Assembly: GCA_947488815.1 (NCBI GenBank)
Contig: CANLCC010000027.1
Span: forward strand, 1 to 28,886
Reading direction: 5' to 3'
Origin: Synechococcaceae cyanobacterium
GTDB taxonomy: Bacteria; Cyanobacteriota; Cyanobacteriia; PCC-6307; Cyanobiaceae
DNA: 28,886 bases
A program made the position numbers and the translations under genes. Shown here in pieces: positions 593 to 28,886 of the stretch. Numbering within the stretch: position 1 is the first letter of the stretch; each line of letters opens with the position of its first letter. The notes below the pieces were generated by a model. It worked only from the letters and a program-made list of their open reading frames with translations, was not told where the DNA came from and ran no database searches.

Positions 593-621
593 TCACCCCG
601 CTTCGGCGGGGTTTTTTATTG
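593..621 (+). terminator. Rho-independent terminator shared by convergent genes (hairpin CCCCGC-TTCG-GCGGGG followed by TTTTTTATT)
   Basis: Perfect 6-bp GC stem with GNRA-like tetraloop 596-611 followed by a T-run 612-620. The TAA stop of minus-strand rarA (618-616) is embedded in the T-tract. Confidence 0.6.
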
Positions 622-2823
622 GCAGCCATCTGACTGTCCTGGCTCCTGGCGCGCTGTGATCCGCCGGTGGAGCAGGGGTTGCTCGACCCGACTGCCCAGT
701 CGCTGCCGCCAGCGCTGTTCAAGCTCGACCAGCGCCGCCGCCGGGGCGGCAGGGCCGAGGCGCTGGCGGTATCGCGACGTCGGCCCGAACCAGCGCTCCA
801 GCAGCGCCTCGGTGATGGGCAAGGGCACCTGTTCCGTCCATTCCTCTTCTTGCACCCCCCAGCCCCGCCCTCGGAGGGTGGTGCCCATCGCCTCCCAGCC
901 GGCTGCGGCCCGCAGGCCTTCGCCCTCCAGCTCTGCCAGCGATCCGGTCGGGGCCAGCAAGCCGGCCGGCCCGGCGGCCGGACGGCTGAACAGCAGGTCC
1001 AGCCGTCCGGCAGGGATCAGCAGTGCCTCCACCGCCGACAGCCACCCCCCACGCTCGGCCTCGCTGAGGGTCACCGGCGGAGCCAGCACGTTGCGACCCA
1101 CCATCCGTTCGAACCGCTGGCCGGCCGGCAGCCTCGACGGCAGCAGGGCCAGGTCCCGCCCCGGTAGCTGGCAGACCAGGGGGGCGACCAGGTCATCGAG
1201 CACCCCCAGCTGCTCCCTGAGGCCGGTGGCGGTGCTTTCTTCCTCGACCTGCAGCACGGTGCCCCCCTCCGGACACCCGTCCAGGGCCGGCAGCGCCCAC
1301 AGCAGTGAGCGGCAGTCGAGCACCAGCACGCGCTGGTGTCGCTCCAGGGGGATCGTGGCCCAGAAGCGCTGCTGCAGGGCCTGCAACCGTTCCCCCTCCT
1401 GGGCCAGCTGGCGCCGCTGCCAGCGTTCGAGCAGGGGGTCGGCGGGGCCGCTGCTCAGGCTCTCCCCCTGTTCACTGGCCCACTCGGCCGCGGCGGCCAG
1501 CTGGGCGGCGCGCTGGCGGTGCAGCTGGCCCCGGCGGGTTCCTTCCCAGCCGAGGCGGCCGGGTTGCCAGAACACTTCTCCCTGCAGCCGGGCCGGCAGG
1601 TAGGCCTGGGCCACCCAGTGCTCGGCGTAGGCATGGGGGTAGCGGTAACCCTGGCCGTCACCGAAGGCATTGCCGTCCCGGTGGGCATCGCGCAGGTGGG
1701 ACGGCACGGCGCTTGTCTTCTCCTGACGCACGCGCCGCACCGCGTCGAAGAAGCCGAGGGTGCTGTTGCTCTTGTCGGTGGCGGCCAGGTACAGGGTCGC
1801 CTGGGCCAGCGGATACAGCCCTTCGGGCAGTCCCATGCGTTCGAAGGCGGCGGCACAGGCCTCAACGACGACGATCGCCTGGGGATCCGCCAGGCCGATG
1901 TCCTCGCCGGCGGCGATCAGCAGGCGCCGGAACAGGAAGCGGGGGTTCTCACCGGCCTCCACCATCCGCGCCAGCCAGAACAGGGCGGCATCGGCATCGC
2001 TGCCGCGGATCGACTTGATGAAGGCGCTGATGGTGTCGAAGTGGGCGTCACCCTGCTTGTCGTAGAGCACCGCCTGTTGCTGGATGGACTCCTCCGCCAC
2101 CGTCAGGTCGATGCGGATGACGCCGTCGTCATCGGCAGGCGTGGTGTCGACCGCCAGTTCCAGGGCGTTGAGCAGCGTGCGGGCATCCCCCCCGGCCACG
2201 GCCACCAGGTGGTCGCGGGCGGCGCCGTCGACCAGCACCCGGCGCTCGCCATAGCCGCGCTCCCGGTCTGTCAGGGCCCGCTCCAGCAGCTGCTGCAGAT
2301 CGGCGGCTTCGAGGGCCTGCAGGCGGAACAGCCTGGAACGGCTCAGCAGGGCCTTGTTGACTTCGAAGAACGGGTTCTCGGTGGTGGCGCCGATGAGCAC
2401 CACGGTGCCGTTCTCGACCCAGGGCAGCAGGGCATCCTGCTGGGCCGTGTTGAAGCGATGCACCTCATCGACGAACAGCACCGTGCGCAGACCGTGGCGA
2501 CCCAGGCGTTCGCGGGCCCCGTCGATCGCCTCCCGCAGCTCACGGATGCCCGCCAGCACGGCGTTGAGGCTGGTGAAGCGGCAGCGGGTGGTGTTGGCGA
2601 TGATCTGCGCCAGGGTCGTCTTGCCGGTGCCGGGGGGGCCATGGAGGATCAGGCTGCCGAGGCGGTCGGCGCTGATGGCCCGGCGCAGCAGCCGACCGGG
2701 CCCGAGAATCGCCTCCTGACCGACGAACTCGTCGAGGGTGCGGGGCCGCAGCCGTTCCGCCAGGGGGGCGAGCTGCTGACGCCTGGCGTCGGCCTGGTGC
2801 TCGAAGAGGTCCATGGTCGCCAT
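616..2823 (-). CDS. rarA: Recombination factor RarA/MgsA (AAA+ ATPase) with an approximately 300-aa C-terminal extension of unknown function (fusion protein, about 736 aa)
   Basis: Walker A LHGPPGTGKTTLA, Walker B VLFVDEVHRF, MgsA-type helical lid and C-domain (...AYLPARLQGEVFWQP...). Start MATMDLFEH at 2823; upstream in-frame extension to 4587 is a GC artefact because MFP genes occupy the plus strand there. Confidence 0.8.
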   Translation of the reverse strand: MATMDLFEHQADARRQQLAPLAERLRPRTLDEFVGQEAILGPGRLLRRAISADRLGSLILHGPPGTGKTTLAQIIANTTRCRFTSLNAVLAGIRELREAIDGARERLGRHGLRTVLFVDEVHRFNTAQQDALLPWVENGTVVLIGATTENPFFEVNKALLSRSRLFRLQALEAADLQQLLERALTDRERGYGERRVLVDGAARDHLVAVAGGDARTLLNALELAVDTTPADDDGVIRIDLTVAEESIQQQAVLYDKQGDAHFDTISAFIKSIRGSDADAALFWLARMVEAGENPRFLFRRLLIAAGEDIGLADPQAIVVVEACAAAFERMGLPEGLYPLAQATLYLAATDKSNSTLGFFDAVRRVRQEKTSAVPSHLRDAHRDGNAFGDGQGYRYPHAYAEHWVAQAYLPARLQGEVFWQPGRLGWEGTRRGQLHRQRAAQLAAAAEWASEQGESLSSGPADPLLERWQRRQLAQEGERLQALQQRFWATIPLERHQRVLVLDCRSLLWALPALDGCPEGGTVLQVEEESTATGLREQLGVLDDLVAPLVCQLPGRDLALLPSRLPAGQRFERMVGRNVLAPPVTLSEAERGGWLSAVEALLIPAGRLDLLFSRPAAGPAGLLAPTGSLAELEGEGLRAAAGWEAMGTTLRGRGWGVQEEEWTEQVPLPITEALLERWFGPTSRYRQRLGPAAPAAALVELEQRWRQRLGSRVEQPLLHRRITARQEPGQSDGCQ

Positions 2824-2877
2824 GCTGGCGTCTCCGCCCCGGCCCCGGCACCCTGGGGGTCCCCCTGGTCTTGTTCC
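2824..2877. promoter_or_regulatory. 54-nt divergent intergenic region between rarA and the efflux operon (divergent promoters)
   Basis: Only non-coding gap between the two oppositely oriented start codons. No promoter boxes confidently recognised. Confidence 0.3.
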
Positions 2878-4035
2878 GTGCGCCGCCCCGCGCTCCTGCT
2901 GCTGGCCGTCCTGCCTGTGCTGGCCGCCTGCCGTCCGCGGACGGCGGAGCCCCCGCCGCGGGTGCCGCGGGTGGCGACGACGGCCCTGGCCCCGCGGCCC
3001 TTCAGTGACCGCCGGGAGGTGGTCTCCACCCTGGAAGCCGTGGATGACGTGCGCCTGGCCGCCACCTCGGCAGGCCGGGTGGATGCCCTGCCGATTCGGG
3101 AGGGGGACGTGGTTCCCGCCGGGGCATTGCTGCTGCGCCTGCGGGTGCAGGAGCGCCAGGCCGACGTCGGTCAGGTGCAGGGCCAGGTGGCGGCGGCCGA
3201 GGCGCGGGTGGTGGAGGAGCAGGCCAAGTTGGCCCGGGACCGGGCCAACTACCAGCGCTATCGCTACCTGCAGGGCCAGGGGGCCGCCAGCCAGCAGGAC
3301 CTGGACACCTATCGCACCCAGGCGATCGCCCAGGAAGCCCAGCTCAAGGCCAGTGAGGATGGTGTCCGTTCGGCGAGGGCCCAGCTGGCGGCGGCATCTG
3401 AACGGCTGCAGGATCGCCTGGTGCGGGCTCCCTTCGCTGGCCAGATCAGTGATCTGCGCGTGAAACCCGGAGATGTGCTGCGGGAGGGCGACCCGTTCAC
3501 GCGACTGCTGCGCAACGACCGGTTGCTCAGCCGCATCACCCTGCCATCGACCCTGGCGGACCGTGTGCAGCCGGGCCAGACCGTGACCCTGGCCGATCCG
3601 GTCAGCGGTCGGGTGCTGGCCACCGGAGCGCTCAGCTTCATCGACCCCACCGTTGACCCTGCCAGCCAGTCCCTGCTCGTGAAGGCTGAGGTGGGAAATC
3701 CGGAGGGGCGGCTGCGCAACGGGCAGCGGGTGCGGGCCTGGCTGGAATTCGGCCGCCGCGAGGCCCTGGCGGTGCCGTTCCAGGCCGTCACCCAGAGCGC
3801 CGGCCAGAGTTTCGTATACACCGTCGGACGTGGAGCAGGCGGTCGCCCCCAGGCCCTGAAGGTGCCGGTGCGGCTCGGCCCCCTGCAGGACGGCTGCTAC
3901 CCGCTGCTTGACGGTCTGCAGGCCGGCGACACCCTGATCACCAGCAACCTGCTCAACCTGCGGCACCGTGCCCCGGTGAAACCCCAGGCCGGGCCGCCGG
4001 TGCGTTGCCTTGACCCATCGGGGCCCACCCCCTAG
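2878..4035 (+). CDS. RND efflux membrane fusion protein / periplasmic adaptor subunit (HlyD/AcrA family) lipoprotein, copy 1
   Basis: GTG start then signal peptide with lipobox LAAC, coiled-coil (QAKLARDRANYQRYRYL...), beta-barrel/MP-proximal domains typical of AcrA-like adaptors. Only the C-terminal part of listed ORF 1336..4035 is real. Confidence 0.75.
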   Translation: MRRPALLLLAVLPVLAACRPRTAEPPPRVPRVATTALAPRPFSDRREVVSTLEAVDDVRLAATSAGRVDALPIREGDVVPAGALLLRLRVQERQADVGQVQGQVAAAEARVVEEQAKLARDRANYQRYRYLQGQGAASQQDLDTYRTQAIAQEAQLKASEDGVRSARAQLAAASERLQDRLVRAPFAGQISDLRVKPGDVLREGDPFTRLLRNDRLLSRITLPSTLADRVQPGQTVTLADPVSGRVLATGALSFIDPTVDPASQSLLVKAEVGNPEGRLRNGQRVRAWLEFGRREALAVPFQAVTQSAGQSFVYTVGRGAGGRPQALKVPVRLGPLQDGCYPLLDGLQAGDTLITSNLLNLRHRAPVKPQAGPPVRCLDPSGPTP

Positions 4036-4047
4036 GTTGCCAGCCTT

Positions 4048-5160
4048 GTGCGGGTGGTCGTGCCAAGCCCCTCTGCCCACCGTCACCTGCCCGCCCAGGC
4101 TGCTCTGCTCGTCGGGGCTCTGCTGCTGTCTGGCGGCTGTGCCCGTCGCCCGCCGATGGCGGCGGCCCCCGCCCCCAGCTTTGCCCTGGCGAGTCCCCAG
4201 AGCCGCCCTTTTCAGGATGAGGCGGTGTACCAGAGCACCCTGGAGGCCATCCGCAACGTCAACCTGTCGGCCGAGATCAGCGGCCGCATCGTCGCCATGG
4301 CCATGCAGGAGGGGCAGACGGTCCGGCCAGGGGAGCTGCTGTTCCGGCTGGATCAGGTGCAGCAGCAAGCCCAGGTCAATGCCACCGCCGCCGAAGCCCG
4401 CAAGGACCTCGTCAACGCAGAGCGATACATCTTTCTGAACAATGAGGGTGCGGTCTCCACCAAGGACCGCGACTATTACGTCACCCAGGCCATTCAGAGT
4501 GCCGACAAGCTGCGCGCCGATAAGGCCACCCTGGGATACAAGAATGTGCTGGCGCCCATCGGTGGACAGATCGGCAGCCTGCTTCACAAGCAGGGTGATG
4601 TTGTCAACCAGGGCGAGAAGATCGTCAATCTGATCGATAACAGTCAGCTCTGGCTGAGGCTGGATGTGCCGGCTGATCTTTCCAGCCGCATGCGTCTGGG
4701 GCTGCCGGTGCTGCTGCAGTCGCCCGACCGCTCACGCACCCTGGCCCAGGGCCGTGTCACCTTCCTGGGGCCGGCCATTGACCCCCAGAGCCAGACCCTG
4801 CTGGCGAAGGCCACCTTCGACAACCCCGACGGCAGCCTGCGCCACAACCAGCGGGTGAGCGCGATTCTGCAGTTCTCCAGCGGTGAGAACCTGGCGATCC
4901 CCGAGGGAGCCGTGTTTCTGCAGGCCGGCCAGAGCTTCGTCTTCCGGGCGGTGTCGGCCGCTGAGGCGCGCCGTGCCCTGGGGCGCCCCCTGCAGCCCGA
5001 GCCCCCGGCGGGTGCTCTGGTGGCCCTGCAGGTGCCCGTCACCGTGGGGGTTCCCCAGAACGGTCTCTACCCCGTCAGCCAGGGTCTGACCGCCCAGGAC
5101 CGGGTGGTGCTGGGCAACCTGGCCCAGCTGCGCAGTGGCATGGGGATCCGGACCCGATGA
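4048..5160 (+). CDS. RND efflux membrane fusion protein (AcrA/HlyD family) lipoprotein, copy 2 (paralog of copy 1)
   Basis: GTG start, lipobox LSGGC, same domain order and many identical motifs to copy 1 (e.g. DPxSQxLLxKAxxxNPxGxLRxxQRV). ATGA overlap with the downstream RND permease. Confidence 0.75.
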   Translation: MRVVVPSPSAHRHLPAQAALLVGALLLSGGCARRPPMAAAPAPSFALASPQSRPFQDEAVYQSTLEAIRNVNLSAEISGRIVAMAMQEGQTVRPGELLFRLDQVQQQAQVNATAAEARKDLVNAERYIFLNNEGAVSTKDRDYYVTQAIQSADKLRADKATLGYKNVLAPIGGQIGSLLHKQGDVVNQGEKIVNLIDNSQLWLRLDVPADLSSRMRLGLPVLLQSPDRSRTLAQGRVTFLGPAIDPQSQTLLAKATFDNPDGSLRHNQRVSAILQFSSGENLAIPEGAVFLQAGQSFVFRAVSAAEARRALGRPLQPEPPAGALVALQVPVTVGVPQNGLYPVSQGLTAQDRVVLGNLAQLRSGMGIRTR

Positions 5161-8100
5161 GCCTTTCGGACACCTTCATCCGCCGTCCGGTGCTCAGCAC
5201 CGTGTGCAGCATCCTCATCCTGCTGGCAGGGGTGATCGCTGTACCGCTGCTGCCGATTGAGTACTTGCCCAACATTGCGCCACCCACGATTCAGGTGAAC
5301 GCCAGCCTTCCCGGGGCCGATGCGCTCACCGTGGAGAGTGCGGTCACCGGACCGCTGGAGGAGCAGATCAATGGCGCTCCCGGCATGGACTACATCACCT
5401 CCTTCAGCACCAGTGAGGGGGTGAGCCAGATCAATGTCTATTTCACGGCAGACACGGATCCGGCCATTGATCAGGTCAATGTGCTGAATCGGGTGCAGAC
5501 TGCCAGCCCCCAGTTGCCCCAGCAGGTCAATGCCCAGGGGGTGACAGTGCAGCAGACCGCCAGCAGTTACCTTCTTGTCTACAACCTCACCTCCAATGAT
5601 GGTCAGTTTGATCGCAATTATCTGAACGGTCTGTATCAGCTCAACCTGGCCTATCCCCTCAGTCGGGCTGAAGGTGTGGGTCAGGTCAATGTGTTCGGCA
5701 GTAGCAATCCGGCCTATCGAATCTGGGTCGATCCGCTCAAACTGGCGCGCTTCAACCTGACTGTTTCGGATGTCACCAACGCTTTGCGTTCCCAGAATCG
5801 CATCGTCGTCGGTGGCACCATCGGCGGACCTCCCCAGGCCCCCTCCAATCGCACCACCTTTCCGATCCTGGTCGAAGGGAACCTGACCTCAGTTCAGGAA
5901 TTCGAAGATCTGATCCTCTCGCGCGGTGCGGCCACCGACAAGGGGCCTTCGGGAGGGTTAATCAGGCTTGGTGACGTGGGTCGTGCCGAGTATGCGTTCC
6001 AGAACTTCAACCAGTCAGCCATCGGCACCATTCAAGGGCATCCTTCAGTGGGATTCGGTGTGATTCAGCTGCCAGGCAGCAATGCCATCACCACTGCGAC
6101 GGCGGTCAATGAGGTGCTCAAGCAGTTCGAGGCCACCCTCCCGCCCGGGGTGGTGCTGGAGAAGGTGTTTGATCAGACCGACTTCATCCACGCCTCGATC
6201 GAAGGAGCCGTGGATGCGCTCCGTGATGCGGTGGTGCTCGTGCTGCTGATCATCTTTCTGTTCCTTCAGGACTGGAAGGCCACGGCGGTGCCAGCCCTGG
6301 CTCTGCCGATTGCCCTGTTGGGGGCCCTGGTGTTCGTCAAGGTGTTCGGATTCTCGATCAATGAACTCACCTTGCTTGGCATCATCCTGGCCACCGGCCT
6401 GGTGGTCGATGACGCCATCGTGGTTGTTGAGGCGGTGTCGGCGCGCATCGAGGCCGGGGACCGGCCATTCGCCGCCGCATCCAACGCGATGAAAGAACTC
6501 ACCGGCGCCATTCTCGCCACTGCCCTTGTGCTGCTGGCGGTGTTCATCCCGGTGACCTTCTTCCCAGGGCCAACCGGCGTGATTTATCGCCAGTTCGCCC
6601 TCACGATCGTTTTCTCGATCATTGTCTCCACGTTCAACGCCATCACCGGCAAGCCCCTGCAGGCGGCCCTGCTGCTCGGCGGTGGCAAGGCCGATCCGAG
6701 GGGATTGATCTGGACCCTCATCGGGGGTCTGTTCGGGGCGGGTTACGGCTGGTTGTTCGGCGGTCTGCCCTGGTGCATAGGCTTCGGTGTCCTTGGGGCC
6801 GTGGTCGGCACTTTCCTTGGGCCGATCTTCGCTGCCTTCAACGCTGCTTTTGAGAGGCTTTCTCGGGGCTATGCCGCGCTGCTGGCGGCCGCCATTCGCC
6901 TGCGCCGGCTGCTGGTGGCGGTGCTTCTGGGGGGGGTGGTGCTCACGGGGGTGGCGTTCCTGTCGGTGCCCAGCGGGTTTGTGCCCACCGAAGACCAGGG
7001 CTATGGCCTCGGCATCATTCAGTTGCCTCCCCAGGCCTCCCTCGAGGCCACCATGGCGGTGGCGGATCAGGCCCGTCGCATCGTCGCCAAGGAGCCGGAG
7101 GTGGTTAGCGGCGAGATGATCGGCGGGGCCGGTTTCAATGGGGGTTCCCTGAACCAGGGCCTGTTCTTCTTCGGCCTCAAGCCCATCGGTGAACGCACCA
7201 GCCCAGACCAGAACGCGAACCGCATCATCCGCCGTCTCAATCAGGCGTTCCAGCAGATCCAGGGCGCCAAGGTGCTGGCGATGCCGCCCGCGGCCGTGCC
7301 CGGCTTCAGCCCCCAGGGGGGCCTCTCGTTCCAGTTCAATGACCTCAGCAATGGTGGCTACACCCCCACCGATCTGGCACGCCTGGCCAACCAGGTGATT
7401 CAGCGCGCCCTGGCCAGCGGTGAGTTCTTCAATCTCTACACCCAGTTCGTCAGCGATGCACCGGTGTGGCGCCTTGAGCCTGACCGCGATCGTATGGCCT
7501 CACTGAACATTGATTTCGGTACGGCCATGGATGTGCTGGGTACACTGAACGGCGGCAGTTTTGTGAATCAGACCTACGAGAGTGGCCAGTATCGGCAGGT
7601 CTATGTGCAGGCGGAGGGCGACCGGCGCTCCATCGTGCAGGACCTTAATAACCTTTATGTCCCAACCGTTTCCGGTCAGCAGGTGCCGCTGGCGAATGTG
7701 ATCCAGGTGAAGCTCGACAGCGCTCCGCCGATCATCAGCCACTACGACCTCTACCGCACGGTGCTCATCCAGGGGGTTGAGGGCCTGGGCAAGAGCAGTG
7801 GCCAGGCGATTGATGCCTTGTTGAACAGCTTTCAGCAGCTTCAGTTCAGCAACATCGGTCAGGCGTGGTCGGCCCTGAGCCGCTCTGAGGTGGCGGCAGG
7901 GTCCCTGGCTGCCCTGGTGTTCGCCCTCGGCCTCGTGGTGGTCTATCTGGTGTTGTCGGCCCAGTACGGCAGCTACATCGACCCCTTGGTCATTCTGATG
8001 ACCGTGCCCCTGGCCATGCTCGGCGCCCTCGTGTTTCTCGTGAGCATGGGACAGGTGAACAATGTCTATGCCCAGGTGGGTCTGGTGACTCTCATCGGCC

Positions 8101-8438
8101 TGGCGGCCAAGAACGGCATTCTCATCGTTGACCTGGCCAACCAGCGCATGGAGGCCGGTCTTTCCGCGAGCGAGGCCGTCCGCGGCGCTGCCGAATCACG
8201 GCTTCGTCCGATTCTGATGACGGCTTCGGCGGCCCTCGCCGGTTTCTTTCCGCTGGTGGTGGCCAGTGGTGCCAGCGCCCTGGCCCAGCGCAGCATCGGT
8301 TCGGTGATCTTCGGTGGGCTGCTGGTGGCCACGGTGCTCAGCCTGTTCGTGGTGCCTTCCTTCTATGTCCTCATGAAGAACCTCGAGGCCAGCTGGTTCC
8401 CTGCCAGCGGCAACGAAGACCCCCTGCCGGAGGGTTGA
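5157..8438 (+). CDS. RND multidrug efflux permease, HAE1/AcrB-AcrD-AcrF family (1093 aa)
   Basis: N-terminus MSLSDTFIRRPVLSTV like AcrB MPNFFIDRPIFAWV. 12-TM architecture with two large periplasmic loops. Conserved VVDDAIVVVE and C-terminal GLxxKNxILIV-type motifs. Confidence 0.9.
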   Translation: MSLSDTFIRRPVLSTVCSILILLAGVIAVPLLPIEYLPNIAPPTIQVNASLPGADALTVESAVTGPLEEQINGAPGMDYITSFSTSEGVSQINVYFTADTDPAIDQVNVLNRVQTASPQLPQQVNAQGVTVQQTASSYLLVYNLTSNDGQFDRNYLNGLYQLNLAYPLSRAEGVGQVNVFGSSNPAYRIWVDPLKLARFNLTVSDVTNALRSQNRIVVGGTIGGPPQAPSNRTTFPILVEGNLTSVQEFEDLILSRGAATDKGPSGGLIRLGDVGRAEYAFQNFNQSAIGTIQGHPSVGFGVIQLPGSNAITTATAVNEVLKQFEATLPPGVVLEKVFDQTDFIHASIEGAVDALRDAVVLVLLIIFLFLQDWKATAVPALALPIALLGALVFVKVFGFSINELTLLGIILATGLVVDDAIVVVEAVSARIEAGDRPFAAASNAMKELTGAILATALVLLAVFIPVTFFPGPTGVIYRQFALTIVFSIIVSTFNAITGKPLQAALLLGGGKADPRGLIWTLIGGLFGAGYGWLFGGLPWCIGFGVLGAVVGTFLGPIFAAFNAAFERLSRGYAALLAAAIRLRRLLVAVLLGGVVLTGVAFLSVPSGFVPTEDQGYGLGIIQLPPQASLEATMAVADQARRIVAKEPEVVSGEMIGGAGFNGGSLNQGLFFFGLKPIGERTSPDQNANRIIRRLNQAFQQIQGAKVLAMPPAAVPGFSPQGGLSFQFNDLSNGGYTPTDLARLANQVIQRALASGEFFNLYTQFVSDAPVWRLEPDRDRMASLNIDFGTAMDVLGTLNGGSFVNQTYESGQYRQVYVQAEGDRRSIVQDLNNLYVPTVSGQQVPLANVIQVKLDSAPPIISHYDLYRTVLIQGVEGLGKSSGQAIDALLNSFQQLQFSNIGQAWSALSRSEVAAGSLAALVFALGLVVVYLVLSAQYGSYIDPLVILMTVPLAMLGALVFLVSMGQVNNVYAQVGLVTLIGLAAKNGILIVDLANQRMEAGLSASEAVRGAAESRLRPILMTASAALAGFFPLVVASGASALAQRSIGSVIFGGLLVATVLSLFVVPSFYVLMKNLEASWFPASGNEDPLPEG

Positions 8439-26263: not shown

Positions 26264-27253
26264 ATGAGTGGCCTGCGCCACCTGGCCATGGTCACGGCAC
26301 CCCAGGCCCCCACGGCTCCCCCTAACTGGGTGGCGTCCCGCCATCCCCTCGGCTGGCTGATCGACCGGCTGCTGCAGGTGGGGCCCCTGCGGGCTCTGCT
26401 GTTTCTGCAGGCCCGCCGGCTGATCATCCGTACGGCCGAGTCCCGCGGCATCGCCTGGAGGGCCCGGCGTCAGACCCTTGTGGCCCAGGCTCAACCGCTG
26501 CTGGCTGCCGTGCAGCGGGCCGACCTGGAGCCACCGGCGTATTACCGGGTGCGCTTCCACGCCTATGACGAGGGCAACCTCTGCTGGGCGGCCGCCGGCG
26601 AGGCCGAGCAGGCCACCGATGCCATGGCCCTGCGGGTGTGGCCCGGTGAGGCCCTGTCGGCCGAGGCGGCCCAGCGGCGGCTGCGGCAGGCAATCTTCGC
26701 CGTGGTCGAACCGTCCCTCGACGGCCCCCTGCGGCGGGTGCTCGACGTGGGCTGTTCGGTCGGGGTCGGCACCCTGGCCCTGCGGGACTGGCTCGATCAG
26801 CGGGGGGACCACGGTGCGGTGGTCGAGGGGCTGGACCTGTCGGCCCCGATGCTGGCGGTGGCGCGGGTGCGCGACCGCGACGGACGCATCGCCGCCTGGC
26901 ACCACGCTGCGGCCGAAACAACGGGACTGGCCGCGGCGAGTGTTGATCTGATCACCCTGCAGTTCGTCTGCCACGAGCTGCCCCAGCGGGCCACCTTGGC
27001 GGTGCTGGCCGAAATGGCCCGGTTGCTGCGGCCTGGTGGCACCCTGGCCCTGGTCGATCAGGACCCCCAGTCGGCGGTGATCCGGCGGTTGCCGGCGCCG
27101 ATCGCGACTCTGCTCAAGAGCACCGAGCCCTATCTCGAGCAGTACTTCAGCCTTGACCTGCCTGCGGCCCTCACCCAGGCGGGGTTCGAGTGCCTGCGTG
27201 TCGCCCCCTGCGATCCCCGCCACCGGGTCGTGGTGGCGCAGAAGGCGCCATGA
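26264..27253 (+). CDS. Class I SAM-dependent methyltransferase
   Basis: Motif I VLDVGCSVGVGT, post-I acidic residue, motif LRPGGTLALVD. Start at ATG 26264 (alt 26288). The listed 5' extension to 26069 is A/G/P/R-rich artefact. Confidence 0.8.
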   Translation: MSGLRHLAMVTAPQAPTAPPNWVASRHPLGWLIDRLLQVGPLRALLFLQARRLIIRTAESRGIAWRARRQTLVAQAQPLLAAVQRADLEPPAYYRVRFHAYDEGNLCWAAAGEAEQATDAMALRVWPGEALSAEAAQRRLRQAIFAVVEPSLDGPLRRVLDVGCSVGVGTLALRDWLDQRGDHGAVVEGLDLSAPMLAVARVRDRDGRIAAWHHAAAETTGLAAASVDLITLQFVCHELPQRATLAVLAEMARLLRPGGTLALVDQDPQSAVIRRLPAPIATLLKSTEPYLEQYFSLDLPAALTQAGFECLRVAPCDPRHRVVVAQKAP

Positions 27254-27382
27254 ATGGACCTGAGTGAGCATCAAATTGGACTCCTGAGTCCCGGATCTGC
27301 GCCTGCTCGCTCTGGCGGTCAGGGGTGGGCCTAATCAGGGACTGGGCGTACGACCCACATTCCTTTGCACTCATCTCCTGTC

Positions 27383-27544
27383 ATGAAAACCCCAGTTCTC
27401 AAGACTCTGTCGGCCAAGCAAGCTGAATCCGTTTCCGGCGGCCTCTTCAACGGCGCCTTCGTGGTGAGCACCACCGGGACCAATTCCCAGCAGAGCGTCG
27501 GCTTCGTCGGCATTGGCCTGGTCGGCATCGGCCGGCTCCTCTGA
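27383..27544 (+). CDS. Double-glycine-leader peptide precursor (53 aa; bacteriocin/microcin-like), leader MKTPVLKTLSAKQAESVSGG, Gly-rich hydrophobic core
   Basis: Not in the ORF track (shorter than 60 aa). ATG...TGA open frame. Leader fits the GG-leader consensus Lxx(L)Sxx(E)xxxVxGG. Core LFNGAFVVSTTGTNSQQSVGFVGIGLVGIGRLL has GxxxG repeats. Followed by a terminator. Confidence 0.55.
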   Translation: MKTPVLKTLSAKQAESVSGGLFNGAFVVSTTGTNSQQSVGFVGIGLVGIGRLL

Positions 27545-27610
27545 ACCCTCACATTTCAGAGCCTGAACGGGCCCAGCAGTTCCTTCTGAACTGACACTGC
27601 GGCGCCATCA

Positions 27611-27645
27611 CCCATCCGGAGGCCTACGGATGGGTTTTCTTCATT
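27611..27645 (+). terminator. Rho-independent terminator after GG-peptide gene 1 (CCCATCCG-gaggccta-CGGATGGG followed by TTTTCTTCATT)
   Basis: 8-bp perfect stem 27611-27618 / 27627-27634 and a T-rich tail. Overlaps the listed 27630 start of the next ORF, which argues against that start. Confidence 0.5.
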
Positions 27646-27692
27646 CCCCTACTCAACAGATTGAAAGTCCCATGCATCCCAGCAGTTCCGTC

Positions 27693-27911
27693 ATGTCCCC
27701 CACTTGCTTGGAGACCCTCTCACCGGAGGCATGTGAAGCCGTCCAGGGAGGTGCAATCAGCATTCCGGTTCTCTCCCTGAAAACCCTGTTGTCCCGCTTC
27801 GGCAGCGATGGGCCTGCCCCCGCCCCGTCGCCGGATCCCGGTTCTTCCTCGATCACCAACATCGGCAGCATCGGCACCTCGTTGGTCAGCGTGGGCGCCA
27901 TCTACCTTTGA
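27693..27911 (+). CDS. Double-glycine-leader peptide precursor, paralog 2 (72 aa from ATG 27693; leader MSPTCLETLSPEACEAVQGG)
   Basis: 20-aa leader aligns position-for-position with peptide 1 (LKTLSAKQAESVSGG vs LETLSPEACEAVQGG). Core ends in a Gly/Ser-rich hydrophobic stretch ITNIGSIGTSLVSVGAIYL. Longer in-frame starts at 27630/27672 are possible. Confidence 0.5.
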   Translation: MSPTCLETLSPEACEAVQGGAISIPVLSLKTLLSRFGSDGPAPAPSPDPGSSSITNIGSIGTSLVSVGAIYL

Positions 27912-27929
27912 GCCCGTTGCCTGATCCCG

Positions 27930-28637
27930 ATGCCTGCCAGCTCCGACCCAGCCCCCTGCGAGGCCGAGCTGCGTCAGGAGCTGGTGCGGGTGGCCCGGGC
28001 CATGAATGCCGCCGGCATCAACCAGGGCACCTCCGGCAACCTGTCGGTCCGTTGCGGTGACGGGCTGCTGATCACGCCGTCATCGCTGCCCTATGAACGC
28101 ATGGGCGCCGACGACATCGTGCGGCTCGGTTTCGACGGCCACTGGCAGGGGAGTCGCCGGCCCTCCTCCGAGTGGCGTCTCCATGCCGATCTGCTGGCCC
28201 ACCGCCCCGGGGCACAGGCGGTTGTGCATTGCCATTCGGTCCATGCCACGGCCCTTGCCTGCCATGGCTTCGCCATTCCCGGGTTCCATTACATGGTTGT
28301 GGTGGCCGGAGGGTCATCGATTCGCTGTGCGCCCTATGCCACCTTCGGGACCCAGGAGCTGAGCGATCTGGCCCTGCGGGCCCTTGAAGATCGTCAGGCC
28401 TGCCTGCTGGCGCAGCATGGGCAGGTGGCCCTGGGCAGCAGTCCCGAAGGGGCCCTGCGGCTGGCCATCGAAGTCGAGACCCTGGCTCGGATGTACCTGC
28501 AGGCGAGGTTGATCGGAGAGCCGCCCCGGTTGTCGGAGGTCGAGCTGGCCAGGGTGGCTGAACGGATGCGCGCGATCCATTACGGCCGCGACCCCGAGGA
28601 GCGACCGCATCAGGCCGTGTCTCCCGAGACTCCTTAG
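27930..28637 (+). CDS. Class II aldolase/adducin-family protein (L-fuculose-phosphate aldolase-like; possible MtnB-type methylthioribulose-1-phosphate dehydratase)
   Basis: Family motifs GTSGNLSVR, HxH metal site (VVHCHSVHATALA), C-terminal QHGQVALGSSPEGA. 235 aa. Confidence 0.8.
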   Translation: MPASSDPAPCEAELRQELVRVARAMNAAGINQGTSGNLSVRCGDGLLITPSSLPYERMGADDIVRLGFDGHWQGSRRPSSEWRLHADLLAHRPGAQAVVHCHSVHATALACHGFAIPGFHYMVVVAGGSSIRCAPYATFGTQELSDLALRALEDRQACLLAQHGQVALGSSPEGALRLAIEVETLARMYLQARLIGEPPRLSEVELARVAERMRAIHYGRDPEERPHQAVSPETP

Positions 28638-28717: not shown

Positions 28718-28886
28718 ATGCAAACCACTCTTCAGCAGCGCTCCGGCGCTTCTGTGTGGAACCAGTTCTGTGAGTGGGTCACCAGCACCGACAACCGCCT
28801 CTACGTGGGCTGGTTCGGCGTTCTGATGATCCCCACCCTGCTGGCCGCCACCACCTGCTTCGTCGTTGCCTTCATCGCCGCTCCCC
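28718..28886 (+). CDS. psbA: Photosystem II reaction-centre protein D1 (N-terminal 56 aa; continues beyond window)
   Basis: [56 protein letters not shown] closely matches the conserved D1 N-terminus (MTT.LQ.RES.S.W..FC.W.TST.NR.Y.GWFGV.MIPTLL.AT.CF..AFIAAP). Confidence 0.95.

What the first reader, a model, noticed from the sequence alone, without database searches (positions are those of the whole stretch)
27383..27911. Pair of paralogous double-glycine-leader peptide genes (one invisible to the ORF track) in a low-GC patch next to psbA
Two adjacent small genes encode 20-aa leaders that match position-for-position and end in GG (MKTPVLKTLSAKQAESVSGG / MSPTCLETLSPEACEAVQGG). The leaders are followed by divergent Gly/Ser-rich hydrophobic cores with GxxxG repeats and no Cys. 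That is the architecture of class II bacteriocin/microcin-like GG-leader precursors, which are exported and cleaved by C39-peptidase ABC transporters. The local GC content drops visibly relative to flanking genes. The first gene (53 aa) is below the 60-aa cutoff and would be missed by standard annotation. No C39-peptidase/ABC exporter or immunity gene is present in the window, and the two HlyD-family proteins at 2878-5160 belong to an RND system, so the processing and export machinery must be encoded elsewhere. The cores are unlike lanthipeptide (Cys-rich) prochlorosins.
Basis: partly seen in the sequence, partly recalled or inferred. Interest (0 to 1): 0.75.

Follow-up and report, generated by a model that had tools for sequence, protein, structure and literature searches.

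The report
Paired double-glycine leader peptide genes
Two small neighbouring genes in a freshwater-type picocyanobacterium are real, conserved genes that look like precursors of secreted peptides cut after a Gly-Gly export tag (a known kind of system), but their exporter was not found and their role, toxin or surface/matrix material, is unproven.

Summary
Both ORFs exist and are real coding genes. dN/dS is 0.13-0.48, GC3 is 0.75-0.80, and both are present in every syntenic relative.

They are paralogues over leader and C-terminus (hhalign E 1.2e-5). Each carries an invariant Phi(-15)..L(-12)-S/T..E(-6)..V/I/L(-4)-x-G-G motif, followed by a Cys-free core that ends in a Gly-rich hydrophobic tail. 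A 26-nt terminator hairpin between them is 96% invariant, while its flanks are 3-8% invariant. A distant ~48% GC contig carries the same A-terminator-B module, so the pairing is old.

- pepB most likely starts at 27672 (27-aa leader).
- There are no GxxxG repeats, only GxxG and GxG.
- Gene callers do call pepA.
- The GC dip is small.
- The locus is a fixed, clade-restricted site among housekeeping genes, not a variable island.

Curated GG-leader models score only below threshold: NF038167 at 14-17 bits against a cutoff of 32, and TIGR03949 at 13.9 against 21.5. No C39 ABC exporter lies within 27 kb upstream or 10 kb downstream, and there is no adjacent immunity gene.

Best reading: two secreted GG-leader peptides processed by an exporter encoded elsewhere, with the role unresolved. 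This is a new member of a known kind, of moderate interest.

The parts
27332..27358 (+). Conserved element upstream of pepA (TAATCAGG-N4-GGGCGTACGACCCAC). It is a candidate promoter, operator or 5'-UTR element.
   Evidence: 20 of 27 positions are invariant across 9 distinct haplotypes, against 3 of 24 in the rest of the 5' region. The 15-mer GGGCGTACGACCCAC is exact in 8 loci and occurs once in the window. The consensus scan found no sigma-70 promoter. Its function is inferred only.
27383..27544 (+). pepA, a 53-aa precursor. The leader is 27383-27442 (20 aa, ending in GG). The predicted mature peptide is 27443-27541 (33 aa, net charge +1, tail VGFVGIGLVGIGRLL).
   Evidence: ORF. Ten homologue clusters at 67-100% identity. 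dN/dS 0.19-0.46 and GC3 0.80. Leader motif. Weak hits to TIGR03949 and NF038167.
27610..27645 (+). Intrinsic-terminator-like hairpin between pepA and pepB: 9-bp stem, 8-nt loop, then TTTTCTTC.
   Evidence: Terminator scan and RNA fold. The 24-nt core is identical in all 15 related loci that carry the pair. 25 of 26 positions are invariant, against 2 of 65 and 3 of 36 in the flanking spacer. The distant pair in L096 also has terminator-like hairpins between its two genes, with a different sequence.
27672..27911 (+). pepB, a 79-aa precursor from the conserved Met. An alternative, clade-specific start at 27693 gives 72 aa. The leader is 27672-27752 (27 aa, ending in GG). The predicted mature peptide is 27753-27908 (52 aa, net charge 0, invariant tail TNIGSIGTSLVSVGAIYL).
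   Evidence: ORF. Homologues. M1 invariant and N-terminal leader hypervariable. dN/dS 0.13-0.48 and GC3 0.75. Synonymous changes at the conserved P, E, G, G and A codons of the leader. Paralogy to pepA.

Best explanation
pepA and pepB are a duplicated pair of genes for small, ribosomally made, probably unmodified secreted peptides.

**Proposed mechanism**
- Each precursor has an N-terminal double-glycine leader. Its last ~15 residues would form a short amphipathic helix, with hydrophobic residues at -15, -12 and -4.
[quoted passage not shown] The PCAT is encoded elsewhere in the genome and would work with an HlyD-type adaptor and an outer-membrane channel.
- Cleavage after G20 (pepA) and G27 (pepB) during export would release a 33-aa and a 52-aa peptide. 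Their conserved Gly-rich hydrophobic C-termini would be the active parts, either inserting into membranes or self-associating.
- The strong terminator between the genes probably makes pepA mRNA more abundant than pepB. Read-through would supply pepB and possibly the aldolase gene 18 nt downstream.

**What is shown and what is inferred**
- Shown: both genes are real and conserved, they are paralogues, and the leader motif and terminator are conserved.
- Inferred by analogy: cleavage, export, stoichiometry and extracellular action.

**Role**
The role is unresolved. I lean slightly (about 55:45) towards a non-toxic, EbfG-like secreted surface or matrix function over a classical bacteriocin. There is no immunity gene, and the pair behaves like a fixed, purified core locus of its clade.
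For: **Real genes**
- dN/dS is 0.13-0.48.
- Substitutions concentrate at third codon positions (6/5/18 for pepA, window against L010). GC3 is 0.75-0.80.

**Conservation pattern typical of leader plus core**
- GG is invariant, as are L-12, S/T-11, E-6 and Phi-4, in A1 and A2.
- The N-terminal part of the pepB leader is hypervariable.
- Five conserved leader codons change synonymously between clades.

**Paralogy**
- hhalign A1 against A2: E 1.2e-5 over leader and tail.
- In the distant pair, A-like against B-like: BLASTP E 2e-8.
- A natural pepA-N/pepB-C chimera exists.

**The module is old**
- The same A-terminator-B order occurs in a ~48% GC contig.
- Its A-like peptide matches the pepA profile at 97.6% probability.

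**Leader tests**
- Both peptides fit the published signal regex [RKEQI]x[IL]x9G[GAS] (PMC12219008).
- The strict form occurs in 1 of 4330 background small ORFs.
- pepA ends ...ESVSGG; the MccV signal ends ...DSVSGG.
- The bacteriocin families NF038167 and TIGR03949 recur among the few weak NCBIfam hits. They hit 5 of the 10 pepA-family members, and NF038167 is the only hit of the distant A-like peptide. None of 10 shuffled controls had any hit.
- AF2 puts a helix at residues 11-23 of pepA, at low confidence.

**Exporter plausibility**
- Group I C39-ABC/HlyD clusters were found in the picocyanobacterial genomes listed in Table 1 of Wang 2011, including Cyanobium PCC 7001, WH 5701 and RCC307 (PMC3140520).
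- Thirteen to fourteen C-terminal leader residues suffice for C39 recognition, and -4, -7 and -12 are the contacts (PMC6363468).
Against: - No curated GG-leader model is passed. NF038167 scores 14-17 bits against a cutoff of 32. TIGR03949 scores 13.9 against 21.5. Pfam gives nothing. pepB has no hit at all.
- Equally weak hits to unrelated families (XDP2, PncC) occur for the same sequences.
- Positions -8/-7 are Q-A or A-C(S), not the consensus E-L.
- No PCAT lies within 27 kb upstream or 10 kb downstream. The rest of the genome could not be searched.
- No adjacent immunity-like small membrane protein is present on either strand.
- There are no expression or proteomic data.
- The AF2 models are uninformative (pLDDT 50 and 57).
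Confidence: 0.55

Rival explanations
1. The pair is a true antimicrobial, a two-peptide (class IIb-like) or class II microcin-like bacteriocin. It would use the same GG-leader/PCAT export, and both mature peptides would act together on the membranes of competing cyanobacteria. It is a sub-case of the secretion model with a toxin role.
For: - Two different GG-leader peptides are kept side by side across a large evolutionary distance.
- The mature tails are hydrophobic and Gly-rich.
- Weak hits go to 'class IIb bacteriocin, lactobin A/cerein 7B' and to 'CTB family bacteriocin'.
- Tandem CTB bacteriocin genes are known in cyanobacteria (PMC9846622).
Against: - The hydrophobic segments have no GxxxG.
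- There is no adjacent immunity gene, although verified microcin immunity genes lie immediately next to the toxin gene (PMC12219008; ORFs).
- The genes sit at a fixed locus among housekeeping genes, and the mature tail is almost invariant (46 of 57 nt invariant). Bacteriocins usually show patchy, diversifying evolution.
- A strong terminator separates the two genes.
Confidence: 0.25
2. The peptides are neither cleaved nor exported. They would be small membrane-associated proteins held by their hydrophobic C-termini, and the GG would be a conserved hinge rather than a cleavage site.
For: - The best 15-residue hydropathy window is 1.95 for pepA and 1.46 for pepB.
- No exporter or immunity gene lies nearby.
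- The pair behaves like a core locus next to photosynthesis and housekeeping genes.
- No curated leader model is passed.
Against: - The hydrophobic stretches are short (about 15-16 residues in pepA) or polar-interrupted (pepB: TNIGSIGTSLVSVGAIYL). The 19-residue windows score only 1.09 and 1.37.
- The conservation pattern is what a recognition and cleavage signal predicts, not a linker: L-12, S-11, E-6, V-4 and GG are shared by both paralogues and by the distant pair, while the N-terminal part of the pepB leader is hypervariable.
- The order-dependent weak hits go to bacteriocin families.
Confidence: 0.15
3. The peptides are RiPP precursors, tailored by the SAM-dependent methyltransferase encoded immediately upstream before export.
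For: The methyltransferase (26264-27253) is the upstream neighbour in every locus with the pair. It matches no specific equivalog; only generic class I methyltransferase models hit.
Against: - A ~130-bp spacer separates the methyltransferase from pepA, which has its own conserved upstream element.
- The methyltransferase stays intact where the peptide pair has collapsed into a degenerate chimera.
- There are no other RiPP hallmarks: no recognition element, cyclase, dehydratase or Cys-rich core.
Confidence: 0.04
4. The ORFs are chance reading frames in a regulatory or non-coding RNA region upstream of the aldolase and psbA genes.
For: The hairpin and the upstream element are more conserved than the coding sequence. 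The genes are very short.
Against: - dN/dS is well below 1, with an excess of third-position changes.
- The frames stay open in all loci, including a ~48% GC relative.
- Rfam finds nothing there.
- The spacers between the elements are essentially unconserved.
Confidence: 0.01

Closest known systems
Cyanobacterial double-glycine-leader 'bacteriocin' precursors (Dirix 2004; Wang, Fewer & Sivonen 2011), including NCBIfam NF038167 'CTB family bacteriocin' (cyan_ocin_like)
   Same: - Small, tandem, paralogous genes.
- A short N-terminal leader ending in GG, with L at -12 and V/I at -4.
- Gly/Ser/Thr-rich cores.
- NF038167 recurs among the few weak NCBIfam hits of A-type peptides (4 of 10 family members) and is the only hit of the distant A-like one.
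   Different: - Scores are about half the curated cutoff (14-17 against 32 bits), and pepB does not hit at all.
- The genes are not next to a C39-ABC/HlyD cluster, whereas Wang et al. found their precursors around such clusters.
- An exhaustive HMMER search of 1.84 billion representatives found no wider family.
EbfG1-4 / PteB of Synechococcus elongatus PCC 7942 (small GG-motif secreted proteins that enable biofilm; EbfG1-3 are amyloid-prone)
   Same: - Tandem paralogous small proteins with a microcin-like GG motif in a unicellular cyanobacterium.
- No toxin or immunity logic.
- A hydrophobic, aggregation-prone segment. The EbfG hotspot motif is A-Phi-N-I-(G/S); the invariant pepB segment is T-N-I-G-S (PMC9981879).
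   Different: - The ebfG genes lie next to their PCAT (pteB), but no PCAT is near this pair.
- EbfG precursors are 9-10 kDa, whereas PepA is 53 aa.
- Homology could not be tested because no EbfG sequences were available. The motif match covers 3 of 5 positions, so it is a lead only.
Class II microcins of Gram-negative bacteria (MccV and others; Parker et al. 2025)
   Same: - Unmodified small proteins with a 15-20-aa GG signal. pepA ends ...ESVSGG and MccV ends ...DSVSGG.
- Both peptides fit the published signal regex.
- Gly/Ser-rich hydrophobic mature parts.
- Export is expected through PCAT, MFP and an outer-membrane channel.
   Different: - There is no adjacent membrane immunity gene and no adjacent PCAT/MFP.
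- Mature PepA (33 aa, about 3.3 kDa) is below the usual 5-10 kDa.
- The host is a cyanobacterium, not an enterobacterium.
- No sequence homology to known microcins was detected.
Class IIb two-peptide bacteriocins of Firmicutes (lactobin A/cerein 7B family, TIGR03949)
   Same: Two different GG-leader peptides are encoded side by side. pepA gives one weak TIGR03949 hit (E 0.034).
   Different: - There are no GxxxG motifs.
- There is no immunity gene.
- A strong terminator lies between the two genes.
- Only 1 of 10 family members hits TIGR03949, below its cutoff.
Prochlorosins and other Nif11/NHLP-leader lanthipeptide precursors of picocyanobacteria
   Same: The same host group. The leader ends in a similar ...LS-x4-E-x-V-x-GG stretch; the comparison with ProcA leaders is from memory and is a lead only.
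   Different: - There is no long Nif11/NHLP leader domain (no Pfam or NCBIfam hit).
- The cores have no Cys.
- The window holds no LanM.

Membership tests
Double-glycine (GG) leader peptides, substrates of C39-peptidase ABC transporters | G-G (or G-A/G-S) at -2/-1, at the end of a 15-30-aa N-terminal leader in a protein shorter than 150 aa | tested here: met
   GG is invariant in 10 of 10 pepA-type and 9 of 9 pepB-type sequences and in both peptides of the distant pair. The leaders are 20 aa and 27 aa (or 20 aa) long.
Double-glycine (GG) leader peptides, substrates of C39-peptidase ABC transporters | Hydrophobic residues at -4 and -12 (and -15) on one face of a short helix | tested here: met
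   Position -4 is V/I/L, -12 is L/I and -15 is L/F/I in all A and B types. AF2 predicts a helix at residues 11-23 of pepA, at low confidence.
Double-glycine (GG) leader peptides, substrates of C39-peptidase ABC transporters | Glu at -8 and Leu/Ile at -7 (ComA consensus L-12 x3 E-8 L-7; Dirix consensus M(R/K)ELx3E(I/L)x2(I/V)xG(G/A)) | tested here: not met
   Positions -8/-7 are Q-A (Q-S) in pepA and A-C (A-S, D-C) in pepB. The conserved Glu sits at -6 instead (consensus as cited).
Double-glycine (GG) leader peptides, substrates of C39-peptidase ABC transporters | Match to the published signal regex (Parker 2025, Motif 1/2: [R or KEQI]-x-[IL]-x9-G-[GAS]) | tested here: met
   pepA K7-T-L9-x9-GG. 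pepB E14-T-L16-x9-GG, with R-P-L in relatives. The background rate is 44 of 4330 small ORFs for the broad form and 1 of 4330 for the strict form.
Double-glycine (GG) leader peptides, substrates of C39-peptidase ABC transporters | Score above the curated threshold on a GG-leader/bacteriocin HMM (TIGR03949, NF038167, Pfam Bacteriocin_IIc and similar) | tested here: not met
   The best scores are 16.9 bits against 32 (NF038167) and 13.9 against 21.5 (TIGR03949). Pfam gives none, and pepB has no hit. The weak hits depend on residue order: 0 of 10 shuffled controls hit anything.
Double-glycine (GG) leader peptides, substrates of C39-peptidase ABC transporters | A cognate C39-peptidase ABC transporter in the same genome | not testable with these tools
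   None lies in the 27 kb upstream or the 10 kb downstream of psbA. The literature shows such transporters in the picocyanobacterial genomes listed in Table 1 of Wang 2011 (PMC3140520).
Double-glycine (GG) leader peptides, substrates of C39-peptidase ABC transporters | Cleavage after GG, with the mature peptide appearing outside the cell | not testable with these tools
   This needs peptidomics or an in vitro protease assay.
Class IIb two-peptide bacteriocins | Two different precursor genes adjacent in one operon | tested here: inconclusive
   The genes are adjacent, on the same strand and always together. A conserved strong terminator lies between them.
Class IIb two-peptide bacteriocins | GxxxG helix-helix motifs in the mature peptides | tested here: not met
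   A regex scan finds only GxxG and GxG in the tails.
Class IIb two-peptide bacteriocins / class II microcins | A small membrane immunity protein encoded immediately adjacent | tested here: not met
   The neighbours are a SAM methyltransferase and a class II aldolase. The only other ORFs at the locus are antisense overlaps without hydrophobic segments.
Class II microcins | PCAT and MFP genes in the same cluster | tested here: not met
   The two HlyD-type genes of the window flank an AcrB-type RND pump, not an ABC transporter.
EbfG-type secreted biofilm proteins (S. elongatus) | Sequence homology to EbfG1-4, and adjacency to pteB | not tested
   No EbfG sequences could be obtained. Adjacency to a PCAT is not met. 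The only resemblance is a 3-of-5 match to the A-Phi-N-I-(G/S) hotspot.
Nif11/NHLP-leader lanthipeptide precursors (prochlorosins) | A long Nif11- or NHLP-type leader domain, a Cys-containing core, and LanM | tested here: not met
   There is no Pfam or NCBIfam hit to these leader families. The cores have 0 Cys. The window has no LanM.

The most novel reading that the evidence does not exclude
pepA-terminator-pepB would be an ancient, obligately two-component secreted peptide module of cyanobacteria. Its parts are a short abundant partner and a longer, rarer partner that share a recognition leader and a homologous Gly-rich tail. The genes are kept away from their exporter.

The two peptides would co-assemble outside the cell. 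The assembly would be either a two-peptide pore-former without a dedicated immunity gene, or a nucleator/subunit amyloid pair in the manner of CsgB/CsgA or EbfG.

This would be the first such paired system described in planktonic picocyanobacteria. The invariant hairpin would set the stoichiometry.
Probability: 0.2. Interest if true: 0.6.

Novelty: new member of a known kind. Interest (0 to 1): 0.38.

Why it matters
Double-glycine peptides are common in cyanobacterial genomes, but almost none has a known role. The one tested case (EbfG) turned out to build biofilm rather than kill.

This locus offers a compact, conserved and unnamed two-gene family in freshwater-type picocyanobacteria, with:
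- clear predicted cleavage sites;
- a built-in terminator that may set the ratio of the two products;
- a natural 'collapsed' chimera;
- a distant relative for comparison.

It is a tractable case for asking what orphan GG peptides do in planktonic cyanobacteria. It also shows that public gene calls often start pepB after the leader (the 40- and 49-aa calls), which hides its nature.

The kind of system is already known and the exporter link is unproven, so the interest is moderate.

Tried and rejected
- **Pfam** scans of both peptides and of all pepA family members found nothing relevant.
- **Sequence search against PDB** with both profiles returned only noise.
- **AlphaFold2** of both families gave pLDDT 50 and 57, so no fold search was run.
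- **Rfam** on the locus found no family.
- **tblastn against plasmids** with pepA and the distant A-like peptide found no match.
- **Viral contig scans** with both profiles found no relatives, so there is no sign of phage carriage despite the nearby psbA.
- **Metagenome scan** with a profile led by the distant pepB-like sequence returned one more close relative (L098) and no longer contig for the distant branch.
- **Genome-collection scan with the aldolase.** Beyond the two nearest species (L010, L011), other Cyanobium, Synechococcus, Vulcanococcus and Prochlorococcus loci have a different gene upstream of the aldolase and no pepA or pepB. A clean insertion/empty-site comparison was therefore impossible.
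- **PEP-CTERM/exosortase sorting signal**, suggested by weak XDP2 hits, was rejected. pepA has no PEP motif, pepB has no terminal basic cluster, and the hits fall outside the anchor region of the profile.
- **Attenuation-type leader peptide for the aldolase** was rejected. The hairpin lies 65 nt after the pepA stop, and both peptides are under purifying selection along their whole length.
- **EbfG sequences** were sought in two papers' supplements and not found.
- **Promoter assignment** for the upstream element failed. There is no sigma-70 match, and NtcA-, LexA- and SigF-like readings by eye were unconvincing and are not claimed.
Full report
**1. What is in the sequence**

The window is a complete 28,886-bp contig of 68% GC. 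Its genes are:
- a RarA/MgsA ATPase;
- two HlyD-type adaptors next to an AcrB-type RND pump;
- phosphoglucomutase;
- a PLD-family enzyme;
- a phycobilisome linker and CpeS;
- the suf operon;
- MtnA;
- a Band-7 protein;
- DUF1643;
- a SAM methyltransferase;
- a class II aldolase;
- the start of psbA.

The content is that of a phycoerythrin-type picocyanobacterium of the Cyanobium/Synechococcus group. Sources name related records 'Synechococcus sp.', 'Prochlorococcaceae cyanobacterium' and 'Cyanobacteriota bacterium'.

- pepA, 27383-27544, 53 aa.
- pepB, ending at 27911.

**2. Are they genes?**

Yes.
- Both are found as predicted proteins in public collections: 10 clusters for pepA at 67-100% identity and 11-12 for pepB.
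- In every contig examined they sit in the same order: DUF1643, methyltransferase, pepA, pepB, aldolase, psbA.
- Pairwise Nei-Gojobori estimates among five divergent loci give dN/dS of 0.19-0.46 for pepA and 0.13-0.48 for pepB, at dS up to about 1.
- Third-position changes are in excess.
- GC3 is 0.80 and 0.75, close to the 0.80-0.89 of neighbouring genes.

The visible GC dip (0.57-0.62) therefore comes from the spacers and the amino-acid composition. It is not evidence of foreign origin.

**3. Where pepB starts**

Public gene calls vary: 93, 79, 72, 67, 49 and 40 aa.
- The ATG at 27630 (93 aa) lies inside the 3' arm of the terminator stem (ACGG-ATG-GGT-TTT), and the residues after it are not conserved.
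- The ATG at 27672 is invariant in all nine aligned homologues.

I therefore take 27672 as the start, giving 79 aa and a 27-aa leader. The start at 27693 remains a possible clade-specific alternative. Some NCBI calls (40 and 49 aa) begin after the GG and miss the leader altogether.

**4. The leader**

Counting back from the GG, the A and B families and a distant pair share this pattern:

Phi(-15) x x [L/I](-12) [S/T](-11) x x x [A/S/C](-7) E(-6) x [V/I/L](-4) x G G

Further observations:
- In pepB the 12-15 residues before this block are hypervariable. Within the block, the conserved P, E, G, G and A codons change synonymously between clades. A translated recognition signal would behave this way.
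- Both peptides fit the regex that Parker et al. used for microcin signals.
- pepA ends ...ESVSGG; the MccV signal is MRTLTLNELDSVSGG.
- In 4330 small ORFs from unrelated loci, the broad regex hit 44 and a strict version (hydrophobic -4 plus GG) hit 1.
- The classical E(-8)-L(-7) is not present. The structural work on LahT shows -4, -7 and -12 as the hydrophobic contacts, so the small residue at -7 is a real departure.

**5. Curated models**

Pfam gives nothing. NCBIfam gives only sub-threshold hits:

| Query | Family | Score |
|---|---|---|
| Window's pepA | TIGR03949 (class IIb bacteriocin, lactobin A/cerein 7B) | 13.9 bits (cutoff 21.5), E 0.034 |
| 4 of 10 pepA relatives | NF038167 (CTB family bacteriocin, 'cyan_ocin_like') | 14.7-16.9 bits (cutoff 32), E 0.005-0.03, over leader and first half of core |

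- The distant A-like peptide has NF038167 as its only hit (E 0.042).
- Ten shuffled pepA sequences hit nothing at all, so the signal is not purely compositional.
- Equally weak hits to an exosortase-dependent surface protein and to PncC occur.
- pepB hits nothing.

This is a consistent lead. It is not membership.

**6. Paralogy and age of the pair**

- Profile-profile comparison of the two families aligns leader with leader and tail with tail (QQSVGFVGIGLVGIGRL against ITNIGSIGTSLVSVGAI), with two insertions in pepB. Probability is 81% and E is 1.2e-5.
- An exhaustive HMMER search of 1.84 billion representatives with the pepA profile found only the family itself and one 52-aa protein, P0022. 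P0022 is a pepA N-terminus joined to a pepB C-terminus.
- P0022 is the only gene between the methyltransferase and the aldolase in two contigs. It has lost the hairpin, and its leader (E-6 to V, SGG to PGG) and tail are degraded. The pair can therefore collapse and decay in a lineage.
- A profile search with pepB found a 38%-identical relative, P0024, on 1.1-kb contigs of about 48% GC.
- Immediately upstream of P0024 lies a 64-aa A-like gene (MHAFHEISDKSAESLSGG|FLNTTFNQSSTG...GIALIGIGKFF), followed by terminator-like hairpins.
- That A-like peptide matches the pepA profile at 97.6% probability, E 2.6e-12.
- It is paralogous to its own partner along its whole length, E 2e-8. The shared segment reads GG[TA]NV[QV]NVGNTG.

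The A-terminator-B module is therefore much older than the high-GC clade.

**7. Non-coding elements**

| Segment | Invariant positions across nine distinct haplotypes |
|---|---|
| Hairpin 27610-27635 | 25 of 26 |
| Spacers on either side of the hairpin | 2 of 65 and 3 of 36 |
| Upstream element 27332-27358 | 20 of 27 |
| Rest of the 5' region | 3 of 24 |

- The hairpin has a 9-bp stem, an 8-nt loop and then TTTTCTTC.
- Its 24-nt core is identical in all 15 related loci with the pair.
- That the loop is conserved as well as the stem suggests more than a generic terminator. I could not say what.
- The upstream element has no sigma-70 match.
- pepB's stop is 18 nt from the aldolase start, so read-through transcripts may continue into the aldolase gene.

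**8. Context and distribution**

- No C39-ABC transporter lies in the 27 kb upstream or the 10 kb beyond psbA on the one contig that continues.
- Most contigs break at psbA.
- No small membrane protein that could be an immunity factor is encoded at the locus.
- Among 80 loci fetched with the aldolase from one genome per species, only the two nearest (74-75% aldolase identity) carry the pair. Other picocyanobacteria have a different neighbour upstream of the aldolase and no pepA or pepB.
- The pair is absent from viral contigs and plasmids.

It is thus a clade-restricted but fixed chromosomal locus, not a mobile island.

**9. Interpretation**

The best-supported mechanism is PCAT-dependent cleavage and export of two unmodified peptides.

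*Shown:* the genes are real, they are paralogues, and the leader-like motif and the terminator are conserved.

*Inferred from established knowledge of GG leaders:* cleavage, export and extracellular action. The basis is:
- the work cited;
- the presence of C39-ABC/HlyD clusters in the picocyanobacterial genomes listed in Wang's Table 1, including Cyanobium PCC 7001, WH 5701 and RCC307.

*The role is open.*
- Against a classical bacteriocin: no immunity gene, no GxxxG, a core-like fixed position, and strong purifying selection on the mature tail.
- For a non-toxic secreted role: in S. elongatus, tandem GG-motif proteins (EbfG1-4) are exported by the PCAT PteB and build the biofilm matrix, and EbfG1-3 form amyloid around an A-Phi-N-I-(G/S) hotspot. 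pepB's invariant TNIGS recalls that hotspot in part.
- Against that analogy: ebfG lies next to pteB, and homology could not be tested.

*Rivals.* A non-exported membrane-peptide reading remains possible at about 0.15. RiPP tailoring by the neighbouring methyltransferase is unlikely, and a non-coding reading is effectively excluded.

**10. Verdict**

The GG-leader interpretation is plausible and partly supported, but it does not pass curated thresholds and lacks the exporter link. The 'bacteriocin' label is not established.

The family is unnamed and narrow, and the kind of system is well known in cyanobacteria. I rate it a new member of a known kind, interest about 0.38.

Noticed in passing
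window 27610-27635 and 27630-27632: The ATG that opens the longest (93-aa) form of pepB lies inside the 3' arm of the terminator hairpin. The conserved 'MGF' at the start of many public 93-aa calls is just the hairpin plus T-tract read as codons.
   Followed up: yes
L094 2666-2824; L095 226-384: In one lineage a single 52-aa chimeric gene (pepA N-terminus joined to pepB C-terminus) replaces the pair between the methyltransferase and the aldolase. The hairpin is lost, and the leader (E-6 to V, SGG to PGG) and the upstream element are degraded. It looks like a recombination or deletion followed by decay.
   Followed up: partly
L096 125-319 and 408-710 (also L097): A distant A-like and B-like pair, separated by terminator-like hairpins, lies on a 1.1-kb contig of about 48% GC from an unidentified organism. 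The two paralogues are more alike here (shared GG[TA]NV[QV]NVGNTG). No flanking genes are available.
   Followed up: partly
window 27332-27358: A conserved element (TAATCAGG-N4-GGGCGTACGACCCAC, containing the palindrome CGTACG) lies 25-50 nt upstream of pepA. It has no sigma-70 match and occurs once in the window. It may be a regulator site or a structured 5' UTR.
   Followed up: partly
window 27610-27635: The loop of the hairpin (GAGGCCTA) is as invariant as the stem across loci whose flanking spacers are saturated with changes. That is unusual for a plain intrinsic terminator.
   Followed up: partly
L011 3471-3473: In this genome the pepA start codon is ATA instead of ATG; a close relative, L098, has ATG. 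Either an in-frame GTG four codons downstream is used, or the gene is impaired there.
   Followed up: no
P0018, P0020, P0021 (NCBI gene calls in related MAGs): Annotation pipelines start pepB at internal codons, giving 40 and 49 aa. This removes the whole GG leader from the deposited protein.
   Followed up: yes
window 28719-28886 and ends of L001-L011, L090: Almost all contigs carrying the locus end inside psbA. That is consistent with assembly breaks at a multicopy gene. One 65.9-kb contig continues into pyrophosphatase, DUF4336, signal peptidase and menD/menB-like genes.
   Followed up: partly
window 616-8438: Two consecutive HlyD-type membrane-fusion genes (within 1336-4035, and 4048-5160) precede an AcrB-type RND pump (5157-8438). 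A long antisense ORF (616-4587, - strand) contains a genuine RarA/MgsA ATPase domain. The true gene boundaries in 616-4035 are therefore ambiguous in this high-GC DNA.
   Followed up: no
window 27911-27930: Only 18 nt separate the pepB stop from the start of the class II aldolase gene, and no terminator lies between them. The aldolase may be co-transcribed with pepB.
   Followed up: no
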